From assembly GCA_964600695.1 (NCBI GenBank), contig CAZRKK010000001.1, forward strand, positions 63,043-127,042: a stretch of DNA of 64,000 nt, in the 5' to 3' direction. Every line of letters starts with the position of its first letter. Within the stretch, counting starts at the first letter, position 1. Below are positions 21,530-63,953 of the stretch, piece after piece. The position numbers and the translations under genes are program-made. The stretch comes from an uncultured Candidatus Saccharibacteria bacterium. Lineage in GTDB: Bacteria; Patescibacteriota; Doudnabacteria; UBA920. A model generated the notes under the pieces. The model did no database searches. It was given only the letters and a program-made list of their open reading frames with translations, and was not told the origin of the DNA.

Positions 21530-22256
21530 GTTCGGATTCGATTATTTGTTTAAAACTTTGCCAGTCAAATACCTGATTAATCTTTAGACCATTAATAAAT
21601 ACGGTTGGTGTAGAATCTACACCATACGAAGTTCCACTATTAACAGATTCTTCTATTTGAGCCTTATATATTCTTTGATCAAAACAGTTATCAAAAGCCT
21701 TAGTGTCTAAACCTAAATCTTTGGCAAACTTCTTTAAGTTAATATCACTGAACGCACCGTTATTTTCTTGATTTTGATTTTTGAAAACGTAATCATGATA
21801 ATCCCAAAATTTGTTTTGATCTTTTGAACACAATGCAGCTTCTGCGGCCTTAAATGATTCTTCACCTAAGAAAGGGTAATCCCAGTAAACAAACCTAATC
21901 TTACCTTGGTCAATATATTCTTCCTTTAATTTTGGGAAGATTGTTTTTTGCCATTCGCCACAGTACGGACATTGGAAATCAGCGAATTCAACAATAGTAA
22001 CTTTTGATTCCCTACTCCCCTGTTGCGGTTTATTTTCTGGAATTTGAATATCAACAGGATTATTTACCACAGGATCAACAAGATTAGTATTTTGAGTAAT
22101 ATTTTGTTTTGCAATTTCTCTAGAAATTAACCACCCTGCCCCTAAAATACTCATCGCGATTAACCAAGCAGACAAAAGCGCAGTTAATATCCATGGTGAA
22201 TAGCTTGTAGTCTTAGTGATTTTTATATTTTCCTGCGGGTTAAATTCTTCTGACAT
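21519..22256 (-). CDS. DsbA-family thiol:disulfide oxidoreductase, membrane-anchored
   Basis: An N-terminal TM segment and a thioredoxin fold with active site FQCPYCGEW. Confidence 0.8.
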   Translation of the reverse strand: MSEEFNPQENIKITKTTSYSPWILTALLSAWLIAMSILGAGWLISREIAKQNITQNTNLVDPVVNNPVDIQIPENKPQQGSRESKVTIVEFADFQCPYCGEWQKTIFPKLKEEYIDQGKIRFVYWDYPFLGEESFKAAEAALCSKDQNKFWDYHDYVFKNQNQENNGAFSDINLKKFAKDLGLDTKAFDNCFDQRIYKAQIEESVNSGTSYGVDSTPTVFINGLKINQVFDWQSFKQIIESELAK

Positions 22257-35788: not shown

Positions 35789-37270
35789 TTATTTTGAAAC
35801 CCATTTTTGTTTCACACCACTTTGAAAATATTTACGGTGCCCATTTTCCCATAAAATAACCTTAGGCTTTACTCGTTTTACCCCAATCATCTTGGTTAGC
35901 TCTCTAAATTCTGAACTAGCGTCTAACAAAGCCTTAATTACATACTGTTCCAATTTAGTTTTAAGAGCTTTGTTATTCTTTTTACCTTTTATTAACTCTA
36001 TGTTAACTTCTAAATATTGATCGTGACGTTTATTGTACTTAGTGAGTAGATTAAATTTCCCAGTAATTTGGCTGAAAAAAATCTTATTCTCTAAAGCCTG
36101 CTTAATAGTTTGAGGGTAAACCTGTAAGCCATAAATTGTAGTGGAAAAATCTGCCCTTTCATAGATATAAACAAAAGGTAGTTCGAAAAGTTTTATACCT
36201 AATCTATTTGCTTCCTTTATCAAGTCTAACCCTAACTCTTTAAATTTATTTTTCACTTCTTCATAATGATAAACACCTCCGTTATCACCGATATCATACC
36301 GAATTAAATTGGTCGAACTATGACCGGAAATTAGTATTCGTTTTTGTTTGATTTCAAAGTTTGTAAAACGTGGATCATATTGAACCAACGTAGGGATTTT
36401 TTTATCTTCAAAGAAACTATCGTGTAAATCTGGGTTACTCAATATCAATTTTCTAATCAAAATAGTGCCGGGATTCTCGAAAGCCATAGCCCCTAACTCA
36501 GCACTACCGTAAATATTCATGGTGTCATAATATGCGCTCTGAATTCCACATTTTTCTACTAAATAATCCCTAAACTTTTCGGTAAAACTTTCTGCAGCAA
36601 AGACCAGCCTTATAGGGATTTTTTTAAGATCTATACCCATTAATTCTGATTCATCGACAATATCCTTTATGAATGGCGGATAGCCACTAAGTATAACGTT
36701 ATCAAACATTGGTGCGAGTTTTTGTAAAGCATTGAATATTTCTTTTTTATTTATCCCTGGAGTAATTATTGTAACGGGATTACCACGCAATGATGCCATG
36801 CGAAAAGCTTGATAAGTAATCAAGCCACCTATCCAAACTCCCATGCCGAAACAATTAATGAGTAAAGTTGATCCTTTTTTCCCATTATTTAAAAAGTTTT
36901 CTGCAATGATTGAGTAGTGGTAATCGACTAACTCATCTCTTAAAAAATATGTCGGTTCAGATGTAGAACCAGAGGTTGAAGTCAGGACAAACCCTTTTTT
37001 CTTCAATTGTTCTTTGGGGAGTATTGATTGAAGGCTATATTTTTTAAAAAAGTCTTTTTTATTGACCTGAGGAACTTCTGAAGAATCAAATTTTTTGGGA
37101 AATTTATATTTTTTCCTTACTAAAAAATCTCGATAGTTCGGTATCGATTTAATTATCTCTAAGAATAATTTTTTTATATTCTCCTTTTGCTGTCTAACCC
37201 AAAAGCCCTGCTTTTTTACTGACCACTCGGCTATAACTTGTTTAGAATCGATAAATTTAGGTGTTGGCAT
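35789..37270 (-). CDS. PaaK/F390-synthetase-like adenylate-forming enzyme
   Basis: LTSTSGSTSEPTYF aligns with the PaaK P-loop SSGTTGKPT. GMGVWIGGL aligns with GYGLFTGGL. RLVFAAESFTEKFRDYLVEKCGIQSAYYDTMNIYGSAELG aligns with the PaaK A8 region. The P-loop Lys is replaced by Glu. Confidence 0.6.
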   Translation of the reverse strand: MPTPKFIDSKQVIAEWSVKKQGFWVRQQKENIKKLFLEIIKSIPNYRDFLVRKKYKFPKKFDSSEVPQVNKKDFFKKYSLQSILPKEQLKKKGFVLTSTSGSTSEPTYFLRDELVDYHYSIIAENFLNNGKKGSTLLINCFGMGVWIGGLITYQAFRMASLRGNPVTIITPGINKKEIFNALQKLAPMFDNVILSGYPPFIKDIVDESELMGIDLKKIPIRLVFAAESFTEKFRDYLVEKCGIQSAYYDTMNIYGSAELGAMAFENPGTILIRKLILSNPDLHDSFFEDKKIPTLVQYDPRFTNFEIKQKRILISGHSSTNLIRYDIGDNGGVYHYEEVKNKFKELGLDLIKEANRLGIKLFELPFVYIYERADFSTTIYGLQVYPQTIKQALENKIFFSQITGKFNLLTKYNKRHDQYLEVNIELIKGKKNNKALKTKLEQYVIKALLDASSEFRELTKMIGVKRVKPKVILWENGHRKYFQSGVKQKWVSK

Positions 37271-38291
37271 GTTTTGATATAAAGGTTTTTTCTACTATCT
37301 TATTAGCTATTCTATCCATGGACTCACTAGAATTCATAGAACTCAAATATACTCTCTTCAATGTGGGTTTTAACTTACTAATATTTCGCAATACTCGAGA
37401 TTTCTTATACCCACCTGCAAGCAATTCATCTGCGACATTAAGAACACCTCCGGCATTAGCAATGTAGTCGGGCACGTGCAGAATACCCTTTAATTTCAAC
37501 TTATCGGATAATTTAATATCACCGAGCTGATTATTAGCTGTACCTATAATCATTTTACTACATATTTGATTAATATTCTTCTTATTTATATCATTTCCCA
37601 TTGCGCAGGGAGCGAAGATGGTAAATTCGTATTTTTCAAATTTCTTTAAGGGTAAGTATGTAGCTTTGGGATACTTTTTTTTAACAATATTTATCCTACT
37701 CTGGTCTATGTCATAATAGAAAACTCTGGCTTTATCTTTTTGTAATAGTCTTAATAATTCAATTCCAGTTTTTCCAACACCCTTTATTCCTATACTTACA
37801 CTCTTAAGAGTCTTAAGTTTTAGGTGTAATTGTGTCATCCATTTGATACAGTAATAAGCACTTAAGGCCGCAAACTCTGATGGATCACCTGCTTGACCAG
37901 CCTTGCCAATAAAATAAGGTGAGTACTTCAACATCCTTTGAACCTGCTTGAAGGTTAATCCCACATCTTCTCCAGTATAAAATCTTCCATTTAACTTCTT
38001 AACTTGTTGCGCATAATTTCTTAGTATCTGGTCCAACTTAGAACTTTTGGGATCCGCAATTATCACACCCTTACCACCGCCAAACTTCAAACCAGCAATA
38101 CAGGTTTTATAAGTCATTGCTTTTGATAATCTTTTTGCATCAAGTAATGCAGATTTTTTATCCTTATAATTGAAAATTCTAGTACCGCCAAGAGCTGGAC
38201 CCAGTTTTGTATTAAACAAAACGATATAACCTTTCAATGGATACTCTTTATCTTTGGATAAATCAATTATTTTTTCTGGTCGATTTTTCAT
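37257..38291 (-). CDS. Glu/Leu/Phe/Val dehydrogenase-family amino-acid dehydrogenase (short Leu/Phe/Val-type)
   Basis: GPALGGTRIFNY...KTCIAGLKFGGGKGVI is the catalytic-Lys motif. An NAD Rossmann GIKGVGKTG is also present. Confidence 0.7.
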   Translation of the reverse strand: MKNRPEKIIDLSKDKEYPLKGYIVLFNTKLGPALGGTRIFNYKDKKSALLDAKRLSKAMTYKTCIAGLKFGGGKGVIIADPKSSKLDQILRNYAQQVKKLNGRFYTGEDVGLTFKQVQRMLKYSPYFIGKAGQAGDPSEFAALSAYYCIKWMTQLHLKLKTLKSVSIGIKGVGKTGIELLRLLQKDKARVFYYDIDQSRINIVKKKYPKATYLPLKKFEKYEFTIFAPCAMGNDINKKNINQICSKMIIGTANNQLGDIKLSDKLKLKGILHVPDYIANAGGVLNVADELLAGGYKKSRVLRNISKLKPTLKRVYLSSMNSSESMDRIANKIVEKTFISKHANT

Positions 38292-39355
38292 TTAAGCAAA
38301 TAATCATCGAAAACAATTCTAGTACGACCACTTTTAATTTTTTCTCCCAATATAATTTTCCTAGCTATCATTGCCGCAATACCACCTCCGATTGTTACGG
38401 TACTCATTAACTGTGGTCTCCCTACTAAAGTTTTATTAACTTGCATGACTGAATCCAAAACCCGTTTTGGAACATTTTGTATACCAACAATTTGAACAGC
38501 ATACTTTTGCTTATCTGCTTCTGTGATAGGTTTTGATAAAATATCCTTCGCTGCGTTGCCAATTAAACCATTGAAAACCTGAACATTTTTTTCTGTATCA
38601 TACCTTTCTATATCAATCAGTAAACTATCTCCTAAATTAGTTAACATCACGACAGGTACCTTAGACTTTTTTGCTTCTAGTCGAATACGAATCTTCATTT
38701 CAAAGTCATCAATGGCTTCAAAAATTACTTGGGGTTTATGCTTCCCATTAAGGAACTTGTCTAACTCTTTAGCTTTTAGACCGTTCTGGTATAAATCTAA
38801 TTTTATATATGGATTAATCTCATATATCTGTTGGGAGGTTATTTCAATCTTAGGTTTACCTACATAACCTATTCCTGCGCGAATTCTATTTAAATTAGAA
38901 GTAGATAATACATCAAAGTCTGACATCTTAATTACTCCACCAACACCCGTATATGCCATACTTACAGCCATAGCGTTGCCGATTGATAGCCCAACAACTC
39001 CCACCACTGATTGGGATAATTTTTTTTGCTCTTCCGAAGTGATAATATTTTGGTTACGGTTGGTATGAATGATTTCATACTGGTTCTTGTTGACCATATG
39101 TATCAATTGACCATTCCAAGGGTAAAAAATCCAATCCCCTAAATTGGACCTATCCTTACTGCTAGTAGAATTTATAAATTCCCGAGACTTCTTTGCAAAA
39201 TCAGGGTCAAACTTTTCTGATGGGTGTTCAATTTCATATAACTCTTCCAGTTGCTCTTTATAAAGATCAATTACCTCTCTTACCTTTGTAGACTTTTTAA
39301 GCTTGGTAATTTCAGTAAAAGAATATTTATTTTCTCTAAATATAATTGGTTTCAT
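38288..39355 (-). CDS. ThiF/MoeB/E1-like adenylyltransferase-fold protein with N-terminal extension
   Basis: VVGVVGLSIGNAMAVSMAYTGVGGVIKMSDFDVLSTSNLNRI is the E1-like nucleotide-binding motif (GxGxxG...D.D.V..SNLNR). About 110 aa of unknown N-terminal sequence precede it. Confidence 0.6.
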   Translation of the reverse strand: MKPIIFRENKYSFTEITKLKKSTKVREVIDLYKEQLEELYEIEHPSEKFDPDFAKKSREFINSTSSKDRSNLGDWIFYPWNGQLIHMVNKNQYEIIHTNRNQNIITSEEQKKLSQSVVGVVGLSIGNAMAVSMAYTGVGGVIKMSDFDVLSTSNLNRIRAGIGYVGKPKIEITSQQIYEINPYIKLDLYQNGLKAKELDKFLNGKHKPQVIFEAIDDFEMKIRIRLEAKKSKVPVVMLTNLGDSLLIDIERYDTEKNVQVFNGLIGNAAKDILSKPITEADKQKYAVQIVGIQNVPKRVLDSVMQVNKTLVGRPQLMSTVTIGGGIAAMIARKIILGEKIKSGRTRIVFDDYLLK

Positions 39356-39356
39356 T

Positions 39357-40370
39357 TTATTTCATTACTTTTTTTAGATCTAGTCTAGGAGTGAATATTG
39401 GTTTCTTATCTGCGTATCCAATTCTAAAAAACATCTGAGGCCTTAAGTTTGTATTTAAGACTTTCTGTAAATCCTTATAATAGTCGCCAATCTCAGTAGG
39501 TGCTGCCATCACGGCATACTTTAAATTCTGCTTAGTTGCTTCTAAAACTATTTTCTCAAATAACTCCCCAACTGCTAACCAGTCTTGGACATCATCACCT
39601 TTTGAACTAATTACAATAACCGCTGGACTATGTTGTAGCCATAGCTTATGACGTCCCATCTGTAATTTTGCAGTGTTGAAAGTTCTGATGATAAATGGAA
39701 TAAAAAATGATAATAGTTTTGGGAAACCTAAATTATAAGCAGGCATGCCATCTCGGTATTTTTGAAGGCTTGGCCGTACCCAATCTGCTGCCTCTTTAGA
39801 AAAATCTTTATTAGAAAAGGCTACGTCTGTTGACTCCACTACTATATCTGTGATTTTGTCTAATTTATTTTTTTCAGTCACTACAAAGCTATGTAGATTT
39901 TCTGTGTCCCAAGTCTTAATTAAATTAATGAAATCCTGAGGCAGTGTTTGTTCAGTGTATAATTCTCTATTGTTATGTCTGTCCAAAATTGCTTGCAAAT
40001 CCGTACGATTCACTATTGAATTACTTTTTAGATTAGAAAATTTAACGGTGACCTTAAAATTTTCTAGATTACCAGTATTGTAATGGGTTTCAAACTCTAG
40101 ACCATATGCTAAGGCAGCTATTTTAAAATTATAAACCGCAGCACCAATGCTAATGGTCACTTGCCTACCTACAAAATCTGAAAAAGGCAAGATTCGATCC
40201 CGATTTGCAGTAATCTCTACACCTTGATCTATTAACTTAAAAAACCACGGTTGAACATTTCTAGTTGATGGGGCTAGGTGCGCATACCGCAATAAAAATT
40301 CTAACTTTTCACTATTTTCACTAAGTTTTAAGAAATCCTCAGGAATAATATTATCTCTAAGAGGTTTCAT
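39357..40370 (-). CDS. two-domain nitroreductase-superfamily (SagB/McbC-like) putative FMN dehydrogenase
   Basis: RYAHLAPSTRNVQPWFF is the nitroreductase motif. The 337-aa length implies duplicated halves as in SagB-type dehydrogenases. It lies 2 nt from the E1-like gene. Confidence 0.6.
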   Translation of the reverse strand: MKPLRDNIIPEDFLKLSENSEKLEFLLRYAHLAPSTRNVQPWFFKLIDQGVEITANRDRILPFSDFVGRQVTISIGAAVYNFKIAALAYGLEFETHYNTGNLENFKVTVKFSNLKSNSIVNRTDLQAILDRHNNRELYTEQTLPQDFINLIKTWDTENLHSFVVTEKNKLDKITDIVVESTDVAFSNKDFSKEAADWVRPSLQKYRDGMPAYNLGFPKLLSFFIPFIIRTFNTAKLQMGRHKLWLQHSPAVIVISSKGDDVQDWLAVGELFEKIVLEATKQNLKYAVMAAPTEIGDYYKDLQKVLNTNLRPQMFFRIGYADKKPIFTPRLDLKKVMK

Positions 40371-49142: not shown

Positions 49143-49748
49143 TTACTCCTCAACCAACCTCGCCTTAACAATATATCTTTTCAAGGCTGTGCCAATTGGG
49201 TAAGAAGTTTGGAGGGTTAAAATGGCCTTGCCGTTAGTTTCTTGGCTCAGTAAATCTGTACGATTCTTTTCGGCCACAAACTTGTCATACACCTTATATG
49301 TATATTTCGTCCCCTCTTTATCAGAAACAATAATAGGAGCACCGATTTCTATTTGAGGAAGTAATGCAAAAACAGTTTTAAAGTTGCCTTTACTAAAAGC
49401 AAAGTCGGAAGAATGACCAAAGATATATGTATTACCTGCCTGCCCTACCTCTGCTGTTCCAGGGAAAAGCACAACTCCATTAACTAAAGCTGTTTGATAA
49501 GCTGTCTCGTTTGCTTCTGTGACAAACTGAATCGGCGCAACTATGTCTAAACTTTCGATAACTAATTGATTTGGTTCGTACTTAATTGGGTTTTCTTTAC
49601 GAAGTTCTTGACGTTGAACCTCTGTAATAAACACCTTACCTAAATGGAACCGAGCTTGCTTAGTAAAGTAAGTGAAGTTTAACAAACCAAACACTAACAA
49701 TCCTAGCACAACAATAATTAATAAATATTTAATAAATTTAATACCCAT
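49143..49748 (-). CDS. sortase-fold protein lacking the catalytic cysteine (TLQTS instead of TLXTC)
   Basis: An N-terminal TM anchor, the conserved His (YIFGHSS) and Arg (RYIVKARL), and a C-terminal ILTLQTSYPIG. The Ser is encoded by TCT (AGA on the plus strand at 49203-49205). The whole protein contains no Cys. Confidence 0.65.
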   Translation of the reverse strand: MGIKFIKYLLIIVVLGLLVFGLLNFTYFTKQARFHLGKVFITEVQRQELRKENPIKYEPNQLVIESLDIVAPIQFVTEANETAYQTALVNGVVLFPGTAEVGQAGNTYIFGHSSDFAFSKGNFKTVFALLPQIEIGAPIIVSDKEGTKYTYKVYDKFVAEKNRTDLLSQETNGKAILTLQTSYPIGTALKRYIVKARLVEE

Positions 49749-49813
49749 ATTTTTAAGATTAGTAACTAAAAACTACCCGCAGGATAACCTTTGGGTAGTT
49801 TTATTATATCACT

Positions 49814-52800
49814 TTAGTTGTTTTGTTTAGCTATGTATTTTGGTAAAAGAATAATACCAAGAGTAGCTAGCATAACCATTACCACATAAGCAGGAGTTCC
49901 TGTTCGAGGTAACTCTGTAGTAGCACCAAGTACAGTTCCTGTTGTTGGGGTACTTGGGATATTTGTACTATCACCAAGGACTCGTCCAACTGTAGGGTTT
50001 GGTACTTCTGGAGCTGGCCCGCCGCCAGTGCTTCCACCACCGCCAGTGCTTCCACCACCGCCGCCTCGATAGATATTCCCAAAGTCTAGACCAGAAGCAT
50101 CACCAGAATAATTTGGATAAACATCAACTGATGCATTGGCTGTTTTAAACATAAAGTCTGTCCAAGAAGAATCTTTATTAGATTCTAGAGTAACTGCTTC
50201 GCAAGGCCAAATTGCACCACCAATAGCAATGTTGTATTCAGTCAAAACAGGTTCTGTCTCTGCCCAATTAGATTGTAAGACTTCTCTAACTGAGTAACAA
50301 CCAGCTACTAAACCAGTAAATTGATAATTCCCGTTGCTATCAGATATAGTTGAGGTTTCTTCGTTATTTAGAGTATTACTTCCATCCTGGTCAAGGTACA
50401 CAACCCAACCTTCAAGCTCATCTTCTACTTCACCATCATGATCACCATTATTGCTGTTATTATCATGATAAACTGTACCGCTTATCTTGAATCCACCATT
50501 ACCACCACCATCTTCATCATCACGGTTATAGAAGTTTTGACCAGTTTCAATTGAATCAGTAACTAATACTTGATTAGCGCCGTTGTCTGCTGGGGTCATT
50601 TGTGTCCAACCTTCTTGACCAACTTCGCGAACGAAATATGTTCCTGTAGGTAAATCTGCAAATGAATAATTACCATCTTTGTCGGTTTTATCATATGGCT
50701 CATTATCATCAAGTTCACCATTTTTATTTAGGTCCAGATAAATTACCCATCCACCTAATGTGATTGGTGTTAACTCTTCATTGCCAGACTGATATTTATA
50801 CTTTGTTCCTGAGATTCCATTTCCACAAGTTGGGAGTTCTGGCTCATCATTAATAATCTGGGTAAAGATACTAAATAATGATTTACGAACTTTTTCCTCT
50901 TGTCGTTGTACACAAACTTGATGGTTACCAAAATCATTATTGATACTATCTGCGTTAGCAGGGACTACATTTAGACTACCTTCTGGAGCACTTTGTTGCC
51001 ATCCAGTTTGCATACCTTCAACAATAGCAAGATTACCGGTTAGATCAGTCACATCAAAACTATAATTACCGTTGGAATCTGTTGTTGTTGAAGATAAGAC
51101 TTCGAAAATTTCTACATCTAGAGTTCCAGTATTATTACCTGGAGCAATATCATTAATTGCGAAATTAACAGCAGCCCCAGTACCAGTTAATGTTTTCCAA
51201 TAAATATGAGAGCTAGTGTATGGACCCCAGTAAGAAGAGTTGCCATCTATTTGCAGGTCCAATAAGTCTGGACCATATATTTCATAATTCTGAACTAAGT
51301 CAGTCCAATCAGGGTTTAAATTTCGAGATGAATATTGAGCATCGGATAGAATTCCATCGTTAGCGTCATAAGTTCCGGAAGCTTTTACTAAATAGGTAGC
51401 GCCATTGGTTAAAGGCAAGCTATCAACACCTGTAACACTAGTTGAATCAACTTCATACTCTGCTACTTTTTTAGTTAAGTAGATAGTCCAATCTTGAATT
51501 CCATTTTCCCCTTGTTCTCTTTCACCGTCACCATCAAGATCATTCCACTTTGTTCCTGTAGCATGATAAGTAGGCTCTCCTTGGCCAGTTTCATCACCAC
51601 AGTAATTAAAGTCTAGGTTGTAAATTAATCCGGTTGGATTGTTGGTTGGTTGGTATGCCCAGTTCTTTACAGCAAATTTTAGAACATGTGTACCTGGTGT
51701 TAGTGCTAATGGAGAGCTATCAGAAACTACGGCATAATCATTGCTAAATCCTACCTGAACTCCATCTAAGAAAGCAGTTACTTCATTGTCAGCGGTAAAA
51801 TGTAAGATTGCAGGAGAAATGCTTGTTGCCCCGGCAGGAATAGTAAAGGTATGGCTATACAGTCTCCATGTATCAATAGAACCATCCCCACCTGCGCCTG
51901 GTGGATTTGTTGGTTGAGCTGCGCTATTGCTGACCCATACCCCGGACCCCTCTGTTATATCTGGATCATTTTGCGGCCCATCCCATGCACCTGGATGACC
52001 AGTAGGACCAGCTAATACAGCTGGAGCATCAATACCTAATGGGTAATTAGCTTCATCACTTAAATCACTCGGTGCTGTATTTTCCTTTAGACCTTCAAAC
52101 TTAGTAAACATACCACTAGCGATAGCTGGGTCTTGCTCCACACAAGGAGTTAGTGACCCAATATTATACGCGATACAGTAGATATGCTCTGGTTGATTAT
52201 TACCTAAGCTAATATACTCTAGATTATCACCATTTAAAGCGTCGTTAAAACATCGAATTGCGGCAAATTCGTAACCATATTTTTCTTGTTCACTCACCCA
52301 CATTTGCCCGTTAACAATTGCTGACTGCATGGCTGGGTTAAGCGCAGAATCTTCTCCAGAAATAGGAGTTACGAATTCACCATCTTCGGTAGCACCTAGA
52401 ACTTGTGCATCATCACTTGTAAAACTACTCTCATTGGAAACGTTAAACTTCCACCCATCGGCACGAACACAATTAGAGTCCTTGCCAGGGATTTCACTTG
52501 GATTTACCAGACCATTCACTAAAGGTGATGGTAAGAACATCCCGTTATTATAGTTATTAAAGTAAACATAATTACCATTGGTTTCATCAGCAGAGCTTCC
52601 AGACTCGTTCCCTGCAACATCACCATATTCTTCACAGACGACTTTGATTAAATGAAGTTTAGGAATCGGTCGATCACAACCATTTTCACTACATTGGTTC
52701 ACGAGTGTAAATGATTCATTTTGAGTATCAACCATTTTAGTTTCATTCTTTCCAGAAATATTGGTCCAGCCATCCTTCATGATTTCATCTAGTTTATATG

Positions 52801-55702
52801 AGCCAAATGGAACATTTTCGATTGTCACACATCCATCCTGACCTGTGGTGCCAGAATAAACAGGATAAATATCCACAGTCATGGTTCCATTGTTATCACC
52901 AAACCAATCAGGATACTGAGTATTAGTTAATGTATCACCGTCAAAGACGCGGAAATTGACAGTCGAGCCAGTTCCAGAAGTTACTAAACTATATGCATGA
53001 GAAGTAGCATATGGACCCCAAGAAACAAATTGACCATCAACTTGCATTTCTAGTAATCCATTCGGGTAACCACCTTGTGGTCCATCAAGAACCGTAGTCC
53101 AACCATCTGGTGTAGTAAAGCGTGGATCTACAGTTTCAAAACCCCGATTTTGCCATGTACCACTAGCGACAATTAAATAATTCTGACCACTAGTTAAGGT
53201 GTTTGTAGAATTAAAACCTGTAGATGAATTTGAATTTACAGAAACTGTTTCTAGTTTAGGACCCTTTAACATGACTTGCCAGTTAGATAGTGGATTTTGA
53301 TTACTATCCAATTTACAAATTTTTACAGTAGAAACACAGCCTGTGTTACATCGATTGACCAAAGTGAAGGTTTCTTTTGGTTGATCAACAACAGCGGAAG
53401 TGTTTTTCCCTGAGTCGTTGCTCCAACCATCTTTCATAAGTTCATCCAATTTGTATGTGCCGTAATCGATATTTTCGAAAGTCACACAACCGTCTTCACC
53501 AGTAGTACCTTTAATGACAGGATAAATATCCACGGTTAAAGTACCGCTATTATCAGAATAGTTGTTGTCTAAAATTCGGAAACCAATTGAACCTGGTACT
53601 GCTAATGTTTTGAATGCAGCATAATTATGAGAAGCGTTAAAGCTCATTGCCCAATTAAAATTGGCATCATCTACTTGAATACCCAAGTATCCTTCATAGC
53701 CAACTAAATCTAGGTTACGAACCCAAGGCAAATCTGCACCAGAGTAAAAACTTGGGTGAATACCAGCATCACTAGCAATTCTCTTAGAGAAAGCTGCGTC
53801 ACTAATATCGCCTTCACTGCCTGGTCGATAAACATAGGTTCCACTTGCTTCTAATACATAATCACCTGCTGGCAAACTATCAGAAAGAGTGCTTAAACCA
53901 GTAGTAGAGTCAACAGTCACGGAGTCTACCATGTCGCCTTTTAAGAATACACTCCATCCCGATAAAGGATTTTGATGATTGTCTAATTTACAAATTGTAA
54001 CATCAGATTCACAATCTTCTTTTACACTTACGTCATCGACAAAACCACCGAGTGTGTTTCCTTCACCAAGATCGGTAATACTTAAACGAGTTACTCCACT
54101 TGTCGCAGTGAATGAATAAGTATGTTGAGTCCAAACTGTGTTGCTGTTTGATGTGCCGTTTTCTGTAATAGTACCTAAAACGGTTGCACCCATTTTTACC
54201 TGAGTGATATTTTCAGACAAGCCCTGTCCTGGACGAGGTGATGTCCAAAGGCTTACTGTATAGTTGCTTCCAACTTTAGTAATTAAATCTTGAAAAAGAC
54301 TAACTGAAGCATCCTCACTACCACCGCCTGATGGGCCTTCCCAATCTGAATCTAACTCTGTGTACTGAGACCCACTCTTTGGATTCCAACCATTTACACC
54401 TCGGTGAAGCTCGGCTTTAGCTATTGCAGGTGCTCCACTTGGATTAACCCAATCAACACTCCATGCTAAACCGGCAGTACCAGAATCTCGAATATCCCAC
54501 GAATTCCCTATTGCAGGAGATTCAAAGCCACCGTTCGCCACCATTTCGGTACCACAAGGCACTGGATTTTTTAACTTATTTACAACTTTATGTGTACAAG
54601 TATTATTTGGTGAACATACAGGAGACACTGTACCGACAGTACTATCGTCTACTTGCCAACCTGCCGGAAGACCTGTTTCTGTAACAGTAATGTCTTCATC
54701 TGTAAAACTATTAATAGTTTCGTCACAAACTAAAGCAGATTGTTGATTATACTTACATACTATTGTATCTTGTCCTGCGTTTACTGTAATTGTAATATCA
54801 TCTTTATTATCAGGAGCATCAATAACCTGTCCATTTGCATCCTGCCATTCTTTAGAGATAGTAACCGTGGTTGGACATCGCAATACTGCTGAATCATCAT
54901 CTTGAGCAACTTTAAGATCTTGCCCAATTAAACATGGATCCGGGGGTGTAACTGGAATATTACAACCTTTGCCTTGTTGATCTTTTGTATTGTATATAGT
55001 TTGCCCGTCAGTCCAGTTATACCCAGCAAACGAACCACCAGAATATGTGAACGGTGGAATAATATCTCCCCAATCTTCTGTAATTCCAGAGAACCATACA
55101 GGACCTGTGTGAGTAGCATGACCATTTGGTCCCTTCATAATACTATTTACACTAACTTCTAACTCTACATAAGGATTTGTGCCATTATTTTCGTGACAGA
55201 TAACTACCTTTTTGGTCTCATCATTTTCACAAAGTCCATTAACAGAAAGGTAATCTTTGTCATGATCCTCATGATCATCTTCATAGTCTTCCTGTTTCAT
55301 TAACTTTCTTTCATACTTACCATTTTTTTCGTGACAAACAATAACCATTTTACTATCACCTGTACCCTGACCAGGACACTTCTTGTTTTCACCATCAATC
55401 ACAAAATCTGAATCATGAGCATCATGAACACCTACCTCACTCTTCTTCATTTGAAGATTATCCCAAGTTGCGCCGTTATAGTGACAAACTGTGACTTTCT
55501 TGTCGTTATCATTATCCCTGGCAACAGCAGTAGTAGGAATACTAAAACTTGAAAGCACTAACGAAAAAACCGCAACTACCGCTAAACCACGAGCTGTAAA
55601 AGCTTTGATTCTACGGATATTTGCAGTTTTAGGAAAACCTCTCAAAATAGCCACATTTGCCCATAATTGAGATATATTTTTGAAAAACTTGTTTTCTGTC
55701 AT
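49814..55702 (-). CDS. giant (1962 aa) LPxTG-anchored surface protein with internal tandem repeats
   Basis: An N-terminal signal region, then three tandem V-x-V/I-C-H-x-x-NG repeats. Three approximately 200-aa repeats follow (CKLD..QNPLS..., each ending GTTG.DGCVT.EN...KLDE.MKDGW). SdrD/Cna-B-like Asp-rich repeats (DGEREQGENGIQDWTIYL; DDNEPYDKTDKDGNYSF) come next. A Gly-rich tract (GGGGGSTGGGGSTGGG) is present. The C-terminus ends LPRTG + hydrophobic TM + KQNN. Confidence 0.8.
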   Translation of the reverse strand: MTENKFFKNISQLWANVAILRGFPKTANIRRIKAFTARGLAVVAVFSLVLSSFSIPTTAVARDNDNDKKVTVCHYNGATWDNLQMKKSEVGVHDAHDSDFVIDGENKKCPGQGTGDSKMVIVCHEKNGKYERKLMKQEDYEDDHEDHDKDYLSVNGLCENDETKKVVICHENNGTNPYVELEVSVNSIMKGPNGHATHTGPVWFSGITEDWGDIIPPFTYSGGSFAGYNWTDGQTIYNTKDQQGKGCNIPVTPPDPCLIGQDLKVAQDDDSAVLRCPTTVTISKEWQDANGQVIDAPDNKDDITITVNAGQDTIVCKYNQQSALVCDETINSFTDEDITVTETGLPAGWQVDDSTVGTVSPVCSPNNTCTHKVVNKLKNPVPCGTEMVANGGFESPAIGNSWDIRDSGTAGLAWSVDWVNPSGAPAIAKAELHRGVNGWNPKSGSQYTELDSDWEGPSGGGSEDASVSLFQDLITKVGSNYTVSLWTSPRPGQGLSENITQVKMGATVLGTITENGTSNSNTVWTQHTYSFTATSGVTRLSITDLGEGNTLGGFVDDVSVKEDCESDVTICKLDNHQNPLSGWSVFLKGDMVDSVTVDSTTGLSTLSDSLPAGDYVLEASGTYVYRPGSEGDISDAAFSKRIASDAGIHPSFYSGADLPWVRNLDLVGYEGYLGIQVDDANFNWAMSFNASHNYAAFKTLAVPGSIGFRILDNNYSDNSGTLTVDIYPVIKGTTGEDGCVTFENIDYGTYKLDELMKDGWSNDSGKNTSAVVDQPKETFTLVNRCNTGCVSTVKICKLDSNQNPLSNWQVMLKGPKLETVSVNSNSSTGFNSTNTLTSGQNYLIVASGTWQNRGFETVDPRFTTPDGWTTVLDGPQGGYPNGLLEMQVDGQFVSWGPYATSHAYSLVTSGTGSTVNFRVFDGDTLTNTQYPDWFGDNNGTMTVDIYPVYSGTTGQDGCVTIENVPFGSYKLDEIMKDGWTNISGKNETKMVDTQNESFTLVNQCSENGCDRPIPKLHLIKVVCEEYGDVAGNESGSSADETNGNYVYFNNYNNGMFLPSPLVNGLVNPSEIPGKDSNCVRADGWKFNVSNESSFTSDDAQVLGATEDGEFVTPISGEDSALNPAMQSAIVNGQMWVSEQEKYGYEFAAIRCFNDALNGDNLEYISLGNNQPEHIYCIAYNIGSLTPCVEQDPAIASGMFTKFEGLKENTAPSDLSDEANYPLGIDAPAVLAGPTGHPGAWDGPQNDPDITEGSGVWVSNSAAQPTNPPGAGGDGSIDTWRLYSHTFTIPAGATSISPAILHFTADNEVTAFLDGVQVGFSNDYAVVSDSSPLALTPGTHVLKFAVKNWAYQPTNNPTGLIYNLDFNYCGDETGQGEPTYHATGTKWNDLDGDGEREQGENGIQDWTIYLTKKVAEYEVDSTSVTGVDSLPLTNGATYLVKASGTYDANDGILSDAQYSSRNLNPDWTDLVQNYEIYGPDLLDLQIDGNSSYWGPYTSSHIYWKTLTGTGAAVNFAINDIAPGNNTGTLDVEIFEVLSSTTTDSNGNYSFDVTDLTGNLAIVEGMQTGWQQSAPEGSLNVVPANADSINNDFGNHQVCVQRQEEKVRKSLFSIFTQIINDEPELPTCGNGISGTKYKYQSGNEELTPITLGGWVIYLDLNKNGELDDNEPYDKTDKDGNYSFADLPTGTYFVREVGQEGWTQMTPADNGANQVLVTDSIETGQNFYNRDDEDGGGNGGFKISGTVYHDNNSNNGDHDGEVEDELEGWVVYLDQDGSNTLNNEETSTISDSNGNYQFTGLVAGCYSVREVLQSNWAETEPVLTEYNIAIGGAIWPCEAVTLESNKDSSWTDFMFKTANASVDVYPNYSGDASGLDFGNIYRGGGGGSTGGGGSTGGGPAPEVPNPTVGRVLGDSTNIPSTPTTGTVLGATTELPRTGTPAYVVMVMLATLGIILLPKYIAKQNN

Positions 55703-55756: not shown

Positions 55757-55785
55757 AATATAACTAAAACATCACTTCCTGTCAA
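55757..55785 (-). promoter_or_regulatory. sigma70-like promoter TTGACA-N17-TATATT for the giant LPxTG gene (minus strand)
   Basis: On the minus strand, TTGACA (plus-strand 55780-55785) is followed by a 17-nt spacer and TATATT (plus-strand 55757-55762), about 50 nt upstream of the ATG at 55702. Confidence 0.45.
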
Positions 55786-55915: not shown

Positions 55916-57019
55916 TTACTGCTTCTTAGGGTTGATTTTAAGAATCAAACCCAGCACCATCAGGTCCGATGGTGAAGTTTTTACTTTACTGGAGTGCTCA
56001 AGCCTAGCTAGTTTTTTCTCCAGAGAAAGTTCAATGTTAATCAAAACACTTTTAACCATATTGTTTTCTCTGGTCAAAGCCATAGGTTTACGATCTACAA
56101 CCAAAAATTGATTGTCGATTATATATGGACTTAATTCACCAGCGACCTTACTCAATGATAAGAAAATATTTCTATTTGTATTAACACCAGCTTTCGCTAT
56201 CCCAGCACCAGACAATGTCCCGATTATTCGGCAACCCTTGGTTTCGTAAACTCGTTTAGCAATCCTGCCCTTCTGAACATTGAGCCTTTCGAAACCGATA
56301 ATTACATAATGACTGGGATTAACATACCGATCTATAAAATCAACCAACTTTCCCCATTGATACAGATCGAGAATACTTCCTAACTCTCGGAATATACCCG
56401 TAGGTGCATTACGAACCAAATCACCAGCTAAATAACTAAGCTCATTTGGTCTTAGCCGGCCGGGTTTTTTGGACGATCCAGATAATCTGATACTAAGGAG
56501 GTCCAAAGATTTAACTCCGTACAAGTTTGAAGCAAAAACATCATTATTGGTTGATCGATTATATATCTCGACACCAGCAGAAGCTATGTACTTCATCAAA
56601 TTGGTATTGATCTCAGCCAGCTTCTCCACTCCATGACCGCGAAACTCGGAAGATTTTTGTAGGCGTTCAACCTCAGCACGTAAGCCTTGATTGATACCTT
56701 TTAACTTCTGCACCTCTTCCGAATCGGCCCTCTTTTGAATATTGCGTTCCTGACGGAACTCATTTAGAGCTTCTTTGAATTGCTCCACGTCCTTAATAGC
56801 CGTGTGCGCAGCATTAAAGTGTTGAGAAATATCTTTCCTTTCGGTTCGATCTTCGTGCTTTATTGCGGCCAAAGTCTGAGCCGTTCTTAATGCCAACTTA
56901 TGATATTCATCCTCGGTTAGCTTAAGTTTTAAGATGGAGTAATCCCACCCAATTACCTCTAAAGGATTTTTGGATACAATTACTCCGTCCGAATTTTGCA
57001 ACGCTGTTACAGTGGTCAT
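55916..57019 (-). CDS. hypothetical protein (N-terminal coiled-coil + C-terminal globular domain), second gene of orphan two-gene operon
   Basis: 367-aa ORF with no recognisable catalytic motif. Its start overlaps the upstream ORF's stop by 4 nt. Confidence 0.5.
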   Translation of the reverse strand: MTTVTALQNSDGVIVSKNPLEVIGWDYSILKLKLTEDEYHKLALRTAQTLAAIKHEDRTERKDISQHFNAAHTAIKDVEQFKEALNEFRQERNIQKRADSEEVQKLKGINQGLRAEVERLQKSSEFRGHGVEKLAEINTNLMKYIASAGVEIYNRSTNNDVFASNLYGVKSLDLLSIRLSGSSKKPGRLRPNELSYLAGDLVRNAPTGIFRELGSILDLYQWGKLVDFIDRYVNPSHYVIIGFERLNVQKGRIAKRVYETKGCRIIGTLSGAGIAKAGVNTNRNIFLSLSKVAGELSPYIIDNQFLVVDRKPMALTRENNMVKSVLINIELSLEKKLARLEHSSKVKTSPSDLMVLGLILKINPKKQ

Positions 57020-57681
57020 AAATTATACCTCTCGCGCAGATCTTCCCAAGTGATGTTTTGATACATCTCCTTGCGCTCTGTAAAGTCCATTTCCCGGATG
57101 CGTTCGACATAATCCGTCCCTAGATAGGAAATCGAAACTCCTCTATCCATGTCTGCCCAAGCACAACGCACTAAGGCTAACACTGCTTGACGCAGGACAT
57201 TTCTATCAATCGCAGCATCGGGCATGAAGAACAATTCTCGAATATCTTCCAAGTACCCGTAAAGATCCGAGATCAAAGATTCAGCTGAATCGCCAAACAC
57301 AATAACCAAAGCCACGGCTGTGGGTTTATTTATCTCCAAGCCGTCAAACTCTCGTGCCGTCGGGCCGTTGAGTTCCAAAGCGATAACCAATTCGTTCCGA
57401 ATCTTATCGGCTTTGTTGGCGACCAAATTTTCGCCCACACTTACCCATTCATCGTCGCCGTCTCGTAACCGGTTTGGACACGAAATGACTTCCAACATCT
57501 TGGCACAATCCTGAACGTTAAGCTTGTAGTCAACCGCCAAGCCAAAATAGATATTTTGAGCGATTGCATCAGGCAAATACTTCTCCAGGTTTTTTTCGAT
57601 CGTTGCAGGCTTAATACCTAAACCATAACCAATTTTGATGATGGCCAAATGCCGCTCATCACTAACAATTAATTTTTTCAT
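57016..57681 (-). CDS. hypothetical acidic cytoplasmic protein, first gene of orphan two-gene operon
   Basis: The ATG lies at 57681, preceded by a GAGGGAAAT RBS. The protein is 222 aa with no recognisable motif. The ORF-track start at 57750 is likely too early. Confidence 0.5.
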   Translation of the reverse strand: MKKLIVSDERHLAIIKIGYGLGIKPATIEKNLEKYLPDAIAQNIYFGLAVDYKLNVQDCAKMLEVISCPNRLRDGDDEWVSVGENLVANKADKIRNELVIALELNGPTAREFDGLEINKPTAVALVIVFGDSAESLISDLYGYLEDIRELFFMPDAAIDRNVLRQAVLALVRCAWADMDRGVSISYLGTDYVERIREMDFTERKEMYQNITWEDLRERYNL

Positions 57682-57771
57682 ATTTCCCTCTTCTTCAGTT
57701 GTAATAGAACAAAGCAAAGAATAACACGTTTTCTGTTTTCTGTCAACCAAATATCCATATAAACATTGGTC

Positions 57772-62534: not shown

Positions 62535-63953
62535 TTATTCAACTATTTCGATATGAACTTTGGAGGTAATCCTAGGGAATGACTTTTGCCACGAAGGAGC
62601 AAGGTTTATAGTTACCCTTTCTATATTCGGATTGGTTAACAAAATATCACTAGCCTGCTCTTTAGACTTTCCTGCCAATTGAGTAACCAGACTATTTTTA
62701 TCAATAGTAGGCTTAGCCTGGCTTTCGTAATGAATCGACAACTGCATTAAGCCAGTAGCTAAATCTAGATTTTTAATTTTGTACACCACGGAATCTTTAT
62801 CTGGGACTTGTAAAGTTTTGTCGGTACCAAGGGTTTGAGTTAAACGGCCACGCACCATAGATTTTAGATCATTTTCATTAAACGCTAACCCAGTAATTTT
62901 TACATTCGCACTTGCTACAAAAACTGTACTTTCTGCTCCTTCTGGTTTATCTGGAGTGAAGTTAGTTACTTCAACATTATATGCACCATCGACTAGCTTT
63001 CTTCCGTCAGATAGATTTTTGTTTACTTCTTCAACAGCTTTATTAATCAATGTTTTTTGGGCTGCCTCTATATCTTCTTTAGCTACTACAGAAACAAAAC
63101 GAGATGACCCACCAATAACCTGAGTAACTGTTTTGGCGTACAAGCGTTGTGGTTGGCTACCAAAAGATTGGTTGCTAATTTCGACTCGTGTTCCAGCCGG
63201 TAAATTGAAGTCTTCCCCACCGTCTGCGGCGACGATATCGGCTGTTGTAGCATTACTGTCTTTACTTGGGCTTTCTAAAGAATTTATGCCATTGATATCT
63301 GAGACAAAATAGTAAGTCTTATTCCCTACTGTTAACACAGTTGTACTACTTCTAAGATTCATGGCACTGCCTGTAAGGTTGTAAATAGCAATTCGTCCTT
63401 GTGCCTTACTCCCAACTTCCTTTTTACCATTAACATTAAACGAATCTGAAACTTGTTTAACCTCATCAACTTTAGTGGCAGGTAAAGTTAAACTACCAGC
63501 GTTAATAGAATCCTGATTGGAATCAATAACCAATTCGAGGTCGCGCGCCACTGTTTGAGAACGAGCATAAATCGTAACATTAGAACTTGGTAAAACTACT
63601 ACTACTAAAGCAACTACGGTGATCAAAGCTAAAGCTACAAAAACCATTGCTAATTTTTTATACGAACGGCGTTGTGGTGGCTTATTAGTCTTACTATTAG
63701 GAGGCATGAACATATTGTCCTGCCTATCATTTAAATTAATTGGAGTTGGAGTAAGCCAAGTGTTGTTTTCTAATCTTGATTTTCTAACTGCAGTTTTTGA
63801 AGCTACTGATGGAGAGCTGTGTCTCACAGCAGTGCGTGGCTGACTGGGTCTCTGCTGATTAGTTCGTGGAGTGACAGCTGGAGCTGTTTTTCTAATAAGT
63901 TTTCTAGTTGGTTGAGTTGGTGCTTTAAAAGTTGTCACAGATGCAGCAGCCAT
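62535..63953 (-). CDS. hypothetical membrane-anchored protein with basic Pro-rich N-terminus and large extracytoplasmic domain (5' end may extend beyond window)
   Basis: 472 aa with a single TM (LAMVFVALALITVVALVVVVL) after an R/K/P-rich N-region. The frame remains open upstream of the Met at 63953 to the window edge. Confidence 0.5.
   Translation of the reverse strand: MAAASVTTFKAPTQPTRKLIRKTAPAVTPRTNQQRPSQPRTAVRHSSPSVASKTAVRKSRLENNTWLTPTPINLNDRQDNMFMPPNSKTNKPPQRRSYKKLAMVFVALALITVVALVVVVLPSSNVTIYARSQTVARDLELVIDSNQDSINAGSLTLPATKVDEVKQVSDSFNVNGKKEVGSKAQGRIAIYNLTGSAMNLRSSTTVLTVGNKTYYFVSDINGINSLESPSKDSNATTADIVAADGGEDFNLPAGTRVEISNQSFGSQPQRLYAKTVTQVIGGSSRFVSVVAKEDIEAAQKTLINKAVEEVNKNLSDGRKLVDGAYNVEVTNFTPDKPEGAESTVFVASANVKITGLAFNENDLKSMVRGRLTQTLGTDKTLQVPDKDSVVYKIKNLDLATGLMQLSIHYESQAKPTIDKNSLVTQLAGKSKEQASDILLTNPNIERVTINLAPSWQKSFPRITSKVHIEIVE

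What the first reader, a model, noticed from the sequence alone, without database searches (positions are those of the whole stretch)
49143..49748. Cysteine-free sortase homolog (TLQTS) adjacent to its presumed LPxTG substrate
The protein has the sortase architecture: TM anchor, conserved His in FGHSS, and conserved Arg in RYIVKARL. The invariant nucleophile position reads Thr-Leu-Gln-Thr-SER, encoded by TCT, and the protein contains no Cys at all. It sits directly downstream of a 1962-aa LPRTG-terminated protein, so it is the expected housekeeping or dedicated sortase for that substrate. It could be a serine-nucleophile sortase variant, a non-catalytic paralog, or a single-base error (TGT to TCT).
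Basis: seen in the sequence. Interest (0 to 1): 0.65.

Follow-up and report, generated by a model that had tools for sequence, protein, structure and literature searches.

The report
Cysteine-free, serine-type sortase clade
This gene belongs to a large, ancient group of sortase enzymes in ultra-small (CPR/Patescibacteria) bacteria whose normally essential catalytic cysteine is always a serine; each sits next to the surface protein it presumably processes, which suggests a natural serine-based version of a textbook cysteine enzyme.

Summary
ORF 49143-49748(-) encodes a 201-aa, Cys-free protein with a full-length sortase domain (Pfam E=5e-21). An AF2 model (pLDDT 89) matches only sortases. TLQT-S182 aligns with TLxT-C of solved sortases, and His112 and Arg191 are present. 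It is not a sequencing error. All 120 closest homologs and 117 of the best 150 cluster representatives carry Ser. So do all 82 genes in 81 loci (80 related genomes plus the window), and these use all six Ser codons. An independent assembly that is 99.2% identical has the same TCT codon. The Ser sequences form one clade nested among Cys sortases that share the GHSS motif. The switch travels with Gln at -2, Tyr/Trp at +1 and Asp at His+3. In 71/81 loci a large adhesin-like protein ending in VLGAxT(E)LPRTG + TM + basic tail lies on the same strand (58 immediately upstream), usually separated from the sortase gene by a terminator hairpin. Three lineages fuse substrate and sortase into one ORF. Best reading: an active, dedicated serine-nucleophile sortase, inferred but not shown. 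I found no description of natural Ser sortases, and reviews state that all sortases have His-Cys-Arg. This is a new variant of a known kind, of moderately high interest, and can be tested directly in vitro.

The parts
49143..49748 (-). Ser-type sortase gene (201 aa, no Cys)
   Evidence: Pfam PF04203 E=5e-21, full length. AF2 pLDDT 89. All top Foldseek PDB hits are sortases.
49668..49736 (-). N-terminal membrane anchor (about residues 5-27)
   Evidence: Hydrophobic stretch IKYLLIIVVLGLLVFGLLNF. The AF2 model has a helix at residues 2-23.
49413..49415 (-). His112 codon (CAT) in the GHSSD motif
   Evidence: Invariant in 121/121 and 151/151 aligned homologs.
49203..49205 (-). Ser182 codon (TCT) at the nucleophile position, motif TLQTSYPIG
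   Evidence: Aligns to Cys of TLxTC in 4d70, 2ln7 and 8t28. Ser in 121/121 close homologs, in 117 of the best 150 representatives, and in 82/82 genes across all six Ser codons.
49176..49178 (-). Arg191 codon (AGA), the conserved sortase Arg
   Evidence: Invariant in all non-gapped homologs. Aligns with R of RYIVKAKL in 4d70.
49764..49802 (-). Terminator-like hairpin plus U-run between the substrate gene and the sortase gene
   Evidence: RNA fold -21 kcal/mol, z=-4.55, none of 200 shuffles as stable. A hairpin plus T-run occupies the same intergenic position in 44/55 related loci.
49814..55702 (-). Presumed substrate: 1962-aa secreted surface protein (SpaA/SdrD_B prealbumin-like domains, choice-of-anchor C/DUF642-like region)
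   Evidence: Pfam and NCBIfam. Homologous or analogous proteins lie upstream of the Ser-sortase in 71/81 loci.
49817..49933 (-). C-terminal sorting signal VLGATTE-LPRTG-TM-KYIAKQNN (LPRTG at 49898-49912)
   Evidence: Read directly from the sequence. The extended consensus (P)(Q)VLGA(A/T)T(E/T)LPRTG is conserved across loci.
55757..55785 (-). Promoter-like site (TTGACA-17-TATATT, 11/12) upstream of the substrate gene
   Evidence: Consensus scan. This is a pattern match only.

Best explanation
The gene encodes a membrane-anchored, extracytoplasmic sortase in which serine (Ser182) has permanently replaced the catalytic cysteine. It is the dedicated processing enzyme for the large LPRTG-terminated surface protein encoded immediately upstream.

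Proposed mechanism (inferred, not shown):
1. The substrate is secreted and held in the membrane by its C-terminal TM segment and basic tail.
2. The sortase domain binds the extended signal VLGAxT(E)LPRTG.
3. Ser182, activated by His112, attacks the Thr-Gly bond and forms an acyl-enzyme oxy-ester instead of a thio-ester. Asp115 (GHSSD) may orient His112. The clade-specific Gln180 and Tyr183 next to the nucleophile may also assist.
4. Arg191 and Thr181 stabilise the substrate and the oxyanion, as in canonical sortases.
5. An amine of a cell-wall precursor resolves the intermediate and anchors the adhesin-like protein to the envelope.

A terminator hairpin between the two genes probably keeps enzyme levels far below substrate levels.

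Shown here: membership of the sortase fold, invariance of Ser/His/Arg, a single origin of the Ser clade, conserved gene pairing, and natural gene fusions. Inferred: catalysis by Ser, the roles of Asp115, Gln180 and Tyr183, and the identity of the acceptor.
For: - Fold and family: Pfam sortase domain over its full length. AF2 pLDDT 89, with only sortases among the top Foldseek hits; class A and E catalytic domains superpose at 2.6-3.8 A.
- Conservation of Ser: Ser at the Cys position in 121/121 sequences down to 46% identity and in 117 of the best 150 representatives of 50% clusters. His and Arg are invariant. In 82 genes the codons are TCT 31, TCG 18, TCC 17, TCA 13, AGC 2, AGT 1, which indicates purifying selection on Ser itself.
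- Where conservation is strongest: family-wide, the most conserved stretches are the catalytic motifs GNxY(I)FGHSSD and LQTSYPxGTAxKR.
- Clade-specific changes cluster around the nucleophile: Q180, Y/W183, A188, and D115 (110/117 in the Ser clade against 8/28 in the Cys clade).
- Phylogeny: the Ser clade is monophyletic (118 tips, no Cys inside) and nested among Cys sortases.
- Gene pairing: 71/81 loci have a same-strand sorting-signal gene within 4 kb, and 58 of these are directly upstream. The motif is LPRTG in 60 and LPVTG in 7. The closed genome CP064996.1 has the same pairing.
- Fusions: three independent clusters (P0135, P0137, P0174) fuse substrate-LPRTG-TM-TM-sortase in one ORF with consistent topology.
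- No Cys sortase was found in the window, in about 1.4 Mb of related loci, or on the 20 Ser-sortase contigs of 200 kb or more.
Against: - There is no biochemical evidence.
- In canonical SrtA the nucleophile is very sensitive to change. Homocysteine at position 184 leaves less than 1% activity (PMC12402908, citing earlier work). C184S is used as a 'cys-less' scaffold (PMC5578623). From my own knowledge, C184A is inactive.
- Ser is a much poorer nucleophile than a thiolate, and canonical sortases have no classical acid-base triad.
- I could not measure active-site geometry because the model coordinates are not exposed. The His loop and the beta7-beta8 loop are the least confident parts of the model, with pLDDT 69 and 80.
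- I could not screen whole genomes, so a separate Cys sortase doing the chemistry cannot be excluded.
Confidence: 0.55

Rival explanations
1. It is a catalytically inactive pseudo-sortase. The protein keeps the sortase fold and the signal-binding groove but only binds the LPRTG signal. It might act as a membrane receptor, retention factor or chaperone for the neighbouring surface protein, or as a regulator of another sortase.
For: Replacing the nucleophile in canonical sortases abolishes or nearly abolishes activity (PMC12402908; C184S is used as a Cys-less scaffold in PMC5578623). Sortases have no obvious acid residue that would form a Ser-His-Asp triad. Conserved gene pairing and fusions would also be expected for a pure binding partner.
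Against: Pseudoenzymes usually lose constraint on catalytic residues. Here Ser, His, Arg and the preceding Thr are effectively invariant across at least 117 clusters at 50% identity. Ser is never Ala, Gly or Thr in more than 200 sequences and is kept through all six codons. The clade-specific substitutions surround the nucleophile, which looks like active-site retuning and not decay. No Cys sortase partner was found nearby or on the same large contigs.
Confidence: 0.2
2. It is a Ser-dependent endopeptidase ('sheddase' or maturase) and not a transpeptidase. Ser182 cleaves LPRT|G, but water resolves the ester intermediate. The surface protein is then released from its membrane anchor, for example into an S-layer or pilus-like structure or into the medium, instead of being ligated to peptidoglycan.
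For: Oxy-ester acyl-enzymes in Ser hydrolases are commonly resolved by water. The pairing and fusion evidence requires cleavage only, not ligation. The fused proteins would need cis-cleavage to separate the two parts.
Against: The sorting signal keeps the full canonical LPxTG + TM + basic tail architecture that goes with wall anchoring. Ser acyl-enzymes can be efficient transpeptidases, as in penicillin-binding proteins and macrocyclases such as PatG (own knowledge). The window encodes envelope functions (WecG/TagA glycosyltransferase, M23 peptidase), which fits an organism with a wall.
Confidence: 0.2
3. It is a sequencing or assembly error (TGT read as TCT) in an otherwise ordinary Cys sortase.
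For: A single G-to-C transversion separates TGT from TCT.
Against: Every close homolog has Ser (121/121). All 82 genes in 81 loci from different projects encode Ser with all six codons. An independent assembly from SRR12404947, 99.18% identical at the DNA level, has the same TCT. Correlated changes at -2 and +1 separate the clade from Cys sortases.
Confidence: 0.01

Closest known systems
CPR 'GHSS...TL(M/I)TC' Cys sortases (the sister clade; probably part of sortase family fam000526 of Meheust et al. 2019, PMC6744442)
   Same: Same fold and length, N-terminal anchor, GNxxxxGHSS His motif, PxGT...R after the nucleophile, and Y151, N106 and other core residues. They are 35-40% identical and also come from Patescibacteria-type genomes.
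   Different: They have Cys at the nucleophile, Met/Ile at -2 and Thr/Trp/Val at +1, and Asp after GHSS is not fixed. The three contexts I examined are stand-alone genes with no adjacent LPxTG substrate.
Class D sortases (e.g. Clostridium perfringens SrtD, PDB 4d70; Bacillus anthracis, PDB 2ln7)
   Same: Best PDB sequence hit (E=8e-5) and best structural hit (Foldseek E=5e-12). They share the TxxTC-YP-type motif and the RYIVKA(K/R)L beta8 strand. NCBIfam's top hit is sortase_SrtD.
   Different: The NCBIfam score of 45.9 is far below the class D cutoffs of 140 and 165. Identity is about 20%. Class D enzymes use Cys and recognise LPNTA-type signals, whereas here the residue is Ser and the signal is LPRTG.
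Class E and class A housekeeping sortases (e.g. Thermobifida fusca SrtE 9m2g; L. rhamnosus or S. pyogenes SrtA 7f87, 7s53)
   Same: The catalytic beta-barrel superposes at 2.6-3.8 A over 141-159 residues. The substrate has the LPxTG + TM + basic tail architecture.
   Different: Scores are below the family cutoffs. These enzymes have a His-Cys-Arg triad and usually serve many unlinked substrates. Here the triad is His-Ser-Arg, and one adjacent substrate accompanies each enzyme gene.
Serine acyl-enzyme transpeptidases of unrelated folds (penicillin-binding proteins; PatG/PCY1-type macrocyclases; rhombosortase) - a functional analogy from general knowledge
   Same: They show that a Ser oxy-ester intermediate can support transpeptidation or protein sorting.
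   Different: They have unrelated folds and catalytic machinery, and no homology to this protein. The comparison is conceptual only and was not tested here.

Membership tests
Sortase superfamily (Pfam PF04203 / MEROPS C60) | Sortase beta-barrel catalytic domain | tested here: met
   PF04203 E=5.2e-21, 75.1 bits against a cutoff of 26.6, profile positions 1-125/125. AF2 pLDDT 89. The top 50 Foldseek PDB hits are all sortases.
Sortase superfamily (Pfam PF04203 / MEROPS C60) | [quoted passage not shown] | tested here: not met
   The aligned position is Ser182 (TLQTS), and the protein has no Cys at all. Ser is invariant across the clade.
Sortase superfamily (Pfam PF04203 / MEROPS C60) | Conserved active-site His and Arg | tested here: met
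   H112 and R191 are invariant in all aligned homologs and align to the His and Arg of solved sortases.
Sortase superfamily (Pfam PF04203 / MEROPS C60) | N-terminal membrane anchor that places the domain outside the cell | tested here: met
   Hydrophobic helix at residues 2-23 in the model. Orientation is inferred. The natural substrate-TM-TM-sortase fusions have a consistent topology.
Sortase superfamily (Pfam PF04203 / MEROPS C60) | Cognate substrate with a C-terminal sorting signal (LPXTG-like motif, hydrophobic segment, basic tail) | tested here: met
   The adjacent 1962-aa protein ends LPRTG + TM + KYIAKQNN. The same pairing is seen in 71/81 loci.
Sortase superfamily (Pfam PF04203 / MEROPS C60) | Transpeptidase activity through an acyl-enzyme intermediate | not testable with these tools
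   This needs an in vitro cleavage or ligation assay and mass spectrometry of the intermediate.
Defined sortase classes A-F and GN (NCBIfam models) | Score at or above the curated class cutoff | tested here: not met
   Best hits: sortase_SrtD 45.9 (cutoff 140), class_D 43.6 (165), class GN 31.5 (158), class_E 28.5 (160), sortase_fam TIGR01076 27.5 (39.35), class_C 27.1 (160), class_F 23.8 (166).
Ser-type sortase clade (proposed here) | GHSSD ... L-Q-T-S-[YW]-P-x-G-T-A-x-x-R motifs, with monophyly | tested here: met
   The query carries all the motifs. It falls inside the 118-tip Ser clade in the NJ tree.

The most novel reading that the evidence does not exclude
These proteins are true serine transpeptidases: a natural His-Ser-Arg catalytic class of sortase, retuned by Gln(-2), Tyr/Trp(+1) and Asp(His+3). 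This class arose once from Cys sortases within the Patescibacteria and now anchors host-contact adhesins. If so, a cysteine transpeptidase fold can run on a thiol-free, oxidation-insensitive nucleophile through an oxy-ester intermediate.
Probability: 0.5. Interest if true: 0.8.

Novelty: new variant of a known kind. Interest (0 to 1): 0.68.

Why it matters
Sortases are textbook cysteine transpeptidases, targets for anti-virulence drugs, and the main enzymes used for protein ligation ('sortagging'). A deep, strictly conserved clade that runs on serine would matter in several ways:
- It would overturn the statement that all sortases use His-Cys-Arg.
- It would provide a natural experiment in Cys-to-Ser nucleophile switching, with candidate compensating residues (Gln180, Tyr183, Asp115) that can be mutated directly.
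- It could yield thiol-free, oxidation- and alkylation-resistant ligases with an extended recognition motif of about 12 residues.
- It identifies how Doudnabacteria-type CPR bacteria, which are thought to live attached to host cells, display their giant adhesin-like surface proteins.

If the protein turns out to be inactive, it would instead be a widespread pseudo-sortase with a conserved binding function, which is also undescribed.

Tried and rejected
- **Sequencing error:** rejected.
- **Codon reassignment or recoding at this position:** rejected, because all six standard Ser codons occur there.
- **Another residue as nucleophile:** there is no conserved Cys anywhere (0 in the query, 0-2 non-conserved in relatives). 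The GHSS serines are equally conserved in the Cys sister clade, so they are not the replacement.
- **Asp115, Glu81 or Gln180 as readers of the substrate's Arg:** not supported, because they stay invariant when X is Val, though only 6 loci have Val.
- **Mobile cassette:** rejected. The pair sits in a conserved chromosomal context (rpoA/rpsD ... substrate-sortase-HU-response regulator) in about 24 loci and in a closed genome.
- **Locus scan with the Cys-clade alignment on metagenome contigs:** failed because the alignment was too divergent. I used individual look-ups instead.
- **Co-occurrence of Cys and Ser sortases by contig-length fingerprints:** only one shared length (1,947 bp) was found, and it proved to be a coincidence. 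This test is weak, because the word-indexed search does not list all sortases.
- **Active-site geometry from the AF2 model:** not possible, because coordinates are not exposed.
- **Literature:** nine searches found no report of a natural Ser sortase. The library lacks most subscription journals, so this does not prove that none exists.

Full report
**1.

ORF 49143..49748 (minus strand) encodes a 201-aa protein with no cysteine.
- Pfam's Sortase model PF04203 matches over its whole length: profile positions 1-125/125, E=5.2e-21, 75 bits against a cutoff of 26.6.
- phmmer against PDB sequences aligns the query's TLQT-S with TIVT-C of C. perfringens SrtD (4d70), TLTT-C of B. anthracis (2ln7) and TLVT-C of A. 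oris SrtC2 (8t28). It aligns KRYIVKARL with RYIVKAKL.
- An AlphaFold2 model built on 79 family sequences has mean pLDDT 89 and pTM 0.80. It shows an N-terminal helix (residues 2-23) and a beta-barrel (residues 61-198).
- Every top Foldseek match in the PDB is a sortase of class A, C, D or E. Class A and E catalytic domains superpose at 2.6-3.8 A over about 141-159 residues.
- The gene lies 65 nt downstream of the 1962-aa ORF 49814..55702, which ends VLGATTE-LPRTG-TPAYVVMVMLATLGIILLP-KYIAKQNN. That is a canonical sorting signal.
- A scan of all reading frames found no other sortase homolog and no other sorting-signal protein in the 64-kb window.

**2. It is not an error: Ser is the ancestral state of a large clade**

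- The word-indexed search of 5.8 billion proteins gave 553 hits. All 120 returned (46-97% identity) have Ser at the nucleophile column, with His and Arg invariant and the motif LQTSYP[IVL]G.
- The exhaustive phmmer search of 1.84 billion cluster representatives gave 3336 hits at E<=1e-3. Of the best 150, 117 have Ser, 28 have Cys and the rest are fragments.
- A scan of GTDB species genomes found 137 genomes encoding a relative, and 80 loci were fetched. These are labelled Doudnabacteria, Saccharibacteria or Patescibacteria, with a few evidently mis-binned labels.
- All 82 sortase genes in these loci plus the window encode Ser. The codons are TCT 31, TCG 18, TCC 17, TCA 13, AGC 2 and AGT 1. Free synonymous drift with an unchanged amino acid is the mark of purifying selection.
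- The exact window protein also occurs on a Logan contig assembled from run SRR12404947. That contig differs from the window at 16 positions plus 3 gaps in 2563 nt (99.18% identity) and still reads TCT.

**3. Evolutionary position**

- The nearest Cys sortases (35-40% identity) share the family-specific GNxxxxGHSS His motif and the PxGT...R segment. They read L-[M/I]-T-C-[T/W/V]-P.
- In a neighbour-joining tree of 163 catalytic domains, the Ser sequences form one clade of 118 tips with no Cys sequence inside. This clade is nested among 44 Cys sequences under midpoint rooting. That fits a single ancient Cys-to-Ser switch.
- One outlier, P0247 (TVTSWP), groups with Cys sequences and may represent a second event.
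- The positions that separate the clades cluster at the nucleophile:
  - Gln180 at -2: 115/117 in the Ser clade, against Met/Ile in the Cys clade.
  - Tyr/Trp183 at +1.
  - Ala188.
  - Asp115 at His+3: 110/117 in the Ser clade, against 8/28 in the Cys clade.
- All other core positions are shared (N106, Y151, T181, P184, G186 and others).
- In a beta-strand, residue -2 faces the same side as the nucleophile, so Gln180 is well placed to take part in the active site. This is an inference.

**4. Conserved anatomy of the locus**

- In 71 of 81 loci a protein with a sorting signal lies on the same strand within 4 kb of the Ser-sortase, and in 58 it lies immediately upstream.
- The motif is LPRTG in 60 loci, LPVTG in 7, and LPKTG and LPDTG in one each.
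- The signal is conserved well beyond the pentapeptide, as (P)(Q)VLGA(A/T)T(E/T)LPRTG.
- The substrates are large (about 280-1960 aa) and variable. They carry SpaA/SdrD-B prealbumin-like and choice-of-anchor C/DUF642-like domains, so they look like adhesins.
- L049 has two tandem substrate-sortase pairs.
- Three independent 50%-identity clusters (P0135, P0137, P0174) encode one polypeptide of the form substrate...LPRTG-TM-basic loop-TM-sortase domain. That topology places both the signal and the enzyme outside the cell. It is Rosetta-stone evidence for a direct functional link.
- Between the two genes the window has a hairpin plus U-run (49802-49764; -21 kcal/mol; z=-4.55). An equivalent hairpin plus T-run is found in 44 of 55 intergenic regions examined, with different stem sequences. 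A strong promoter-like site precedes the substrate gene. The likely logic is abundant substrate and attenuated enzyme.
- The pair lies in a conserved chromosomal neighbourhood (rpoA-rpsD ... substrate-sortase-HU-response regulator) in about 24 loci and in the closed 943-kb genome CP064996.1. It is therefore vertically inherited.
- By contrast, the three sister-clade Cys sortases I inspected are stand-alone genes with no adjacent LPxTG protein.

**5. Most likely mechanism**

I favour an active serine-nucleophile sortase dedicated to the neighbouring LPRTG protein (confidence 0.55).
- Ser182 would be activated by His112. Asp115 and Gln180 are candidate helpers.
- Ser182 would attack the Thr-Gly bond and form an oxy-ester acyl-enzyme. 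Arg191 and Thr181 would act as in canonical sortases.
- An amine of a wall precursor would resolve the intermediate.
- Support comes from the absolute conservation of Ser, His, Arg and Thr. The strongest family conservation falls on the catalytic motifs. The compensatory-looking substitutions lie around the nucleophile. The pairing and fusion data point the same way.
- Against it: Ser is a far poorer nucleophile, and SrtA tolerates almost no change at Cys184. Homocysteine there gives less than 1% activity (PMC12402908), and C184S is used as a Cys-less scaffold (PMC5578623). Nothing has been shown biochemically.

The rivals are a binding-only pseudo-sortase (0.2) and a Ser endopeptidase that sheds the protein instead of ligating it (0.2). 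A sequencing error is excluded.

One gap could not be closed. The tools give no whole-genome access, so I cannot show that the Ser enzyme is the only sortase in these genomes.
- No Cys sortase occurs in the window or in about 1.4 Mb of related loci.
- None of the 109 hits to a Cys-clade profile lies on any of the 20 Ser-sortase contigs of 200 kb or more, judged by contig-length fingerprints. The single coincidence was checked and dismissed.
- That search is word-indexed and not exhaustive.

**6. Comparison with what is known**

- The protein is a member of the sortase fold superfamily. It fails the family's defining chemical feature. [quoted passage not shown]
- It reaches none of NCBIfam's class cutoffs (best: SrtD at 45.9 against 140), so it belongs to none of classes A-F or GN.
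- Its closest relatives are CPR Cys sortases. Meheust et al. 2019 noted a sortase family in more than half of CPR genomes without commenting on the nucleophile (PMC6744442).
- Nine full-text searches found no description of a natural Ser sortase. The library omits most subscription journals, so prior mention elsewhere cannot be excluded.
- I rate this a new variant of a known kind.

**7. Verdict**

The error hypothesis is eliminated. This gene is one member of a widespread, monophyletic, Cys-free Ser-sortase clade that is tightly coupled to LPRTG adhesin-like substrates in Doudnabacteria-type Patescibacteria. Interest is 0.68. The finding would surprise sortase specialists and can be tested directly with a simple peptide assay, but the chemistry remains inferred.

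Noticed in passing
P0135 (517 aa), P0137 (919 aa), P0174 (673 aa); These are natural single-ORF fusions of an LPRTG-terminated surface protein, two TM segments and a Ser-sortase domain. They may be true self-processing fusions or merged gene calls. The DNA was not inspected.
   Followed up: partly
window 49749-49813 (-); L088 9915-10000; L001, L007, L011, L015, L017, L021, L028: The start of the substrate-sortase intergenic region carries a conserved (A)GTGATATAATAAAACTACC sequence, which matches the extended -10 pattern TGnTAnAAT. It runs straight into the terminator hairpin and is conserved even at 63% protein identity. It could be an internal promoter for the sortase gene that overlaps the terminator.
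   Followed up: partly
P0142, P0156, P0161, P0184: Some Ser-sortases carry an insertion of about 130-150 aa between the TM anchor and the catalytic domain. The insertion is rich in DTDxDG-type (calcium-binding-like) repeats.
   Followed up: no
window ~55132-55495 (-), residues ~70-190 of the 1962-aa protein: There are three N-terminal repeats of a Cys/His-rich module (KKVTVCHYNG..., KMVIVCHEKNG..., KKVVICHENNG...) of unknown function. The protein contains many Cys, and the window also encodes a DsbA-like oxidoreductase (21519-22256), which suggests an oxidising envelope. That could be one rationale for a thiol-free sortase.
   Followed up: no
P0247 (291 aa; motif TVTSWP): This Ser-containing sortase lacks Gln at -2 and groups with Cys sortases in the tree. 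It may be an independent second Cys-to-Ser replacement, or an error in that sequence.
   Followed up: no
window 35789-40370 (-); L088 11763-15579: This conserved gene cluster holds a ThiF/E1-like protein, a nitroreductase-family protein, a Glu/Leu/Phe/Val-dehydrogenase-like protein and a 493-aa protein with no Pfam match. A similar cluster sits near the sortase locus in the closed genome CP064996.1. Its function is unknown (possibly peptide or cofactor modification).
   Followed up: no
window 1-64000: Rfam at gathering thresholds found no RNA family in 64 kb: no tRNA, rRNA, riboswitch or leader.
   Followed up: no
L085 18818-20122 (-): About 8 kb from a sister-clade Cys sortase, a 434-aa protein ends ...NLSETG-PAEIIYTFGLLSIAWL-NRKKLYKAFSR. 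This may be an LSETG-type sorting signal used by the Cys clade.
   Followed up: no
P0299: A Cys-clade sortase is labelled by NCBI as coming from a Candidatus Aenigmarchaeota archaeon (DPANN). This could be mis-binning or transfer between ultra-small bacteria and archaea.
   Followed up: no
window 55916-57750 (-) and 62535-63953 (-): Three ORFs of 367, 244 and 472 aa have no Pfam match at E<=1e-5. The first two lie immediately upstream of the substrate gene, and no homolog was found in the related loci.
   Followed up: no
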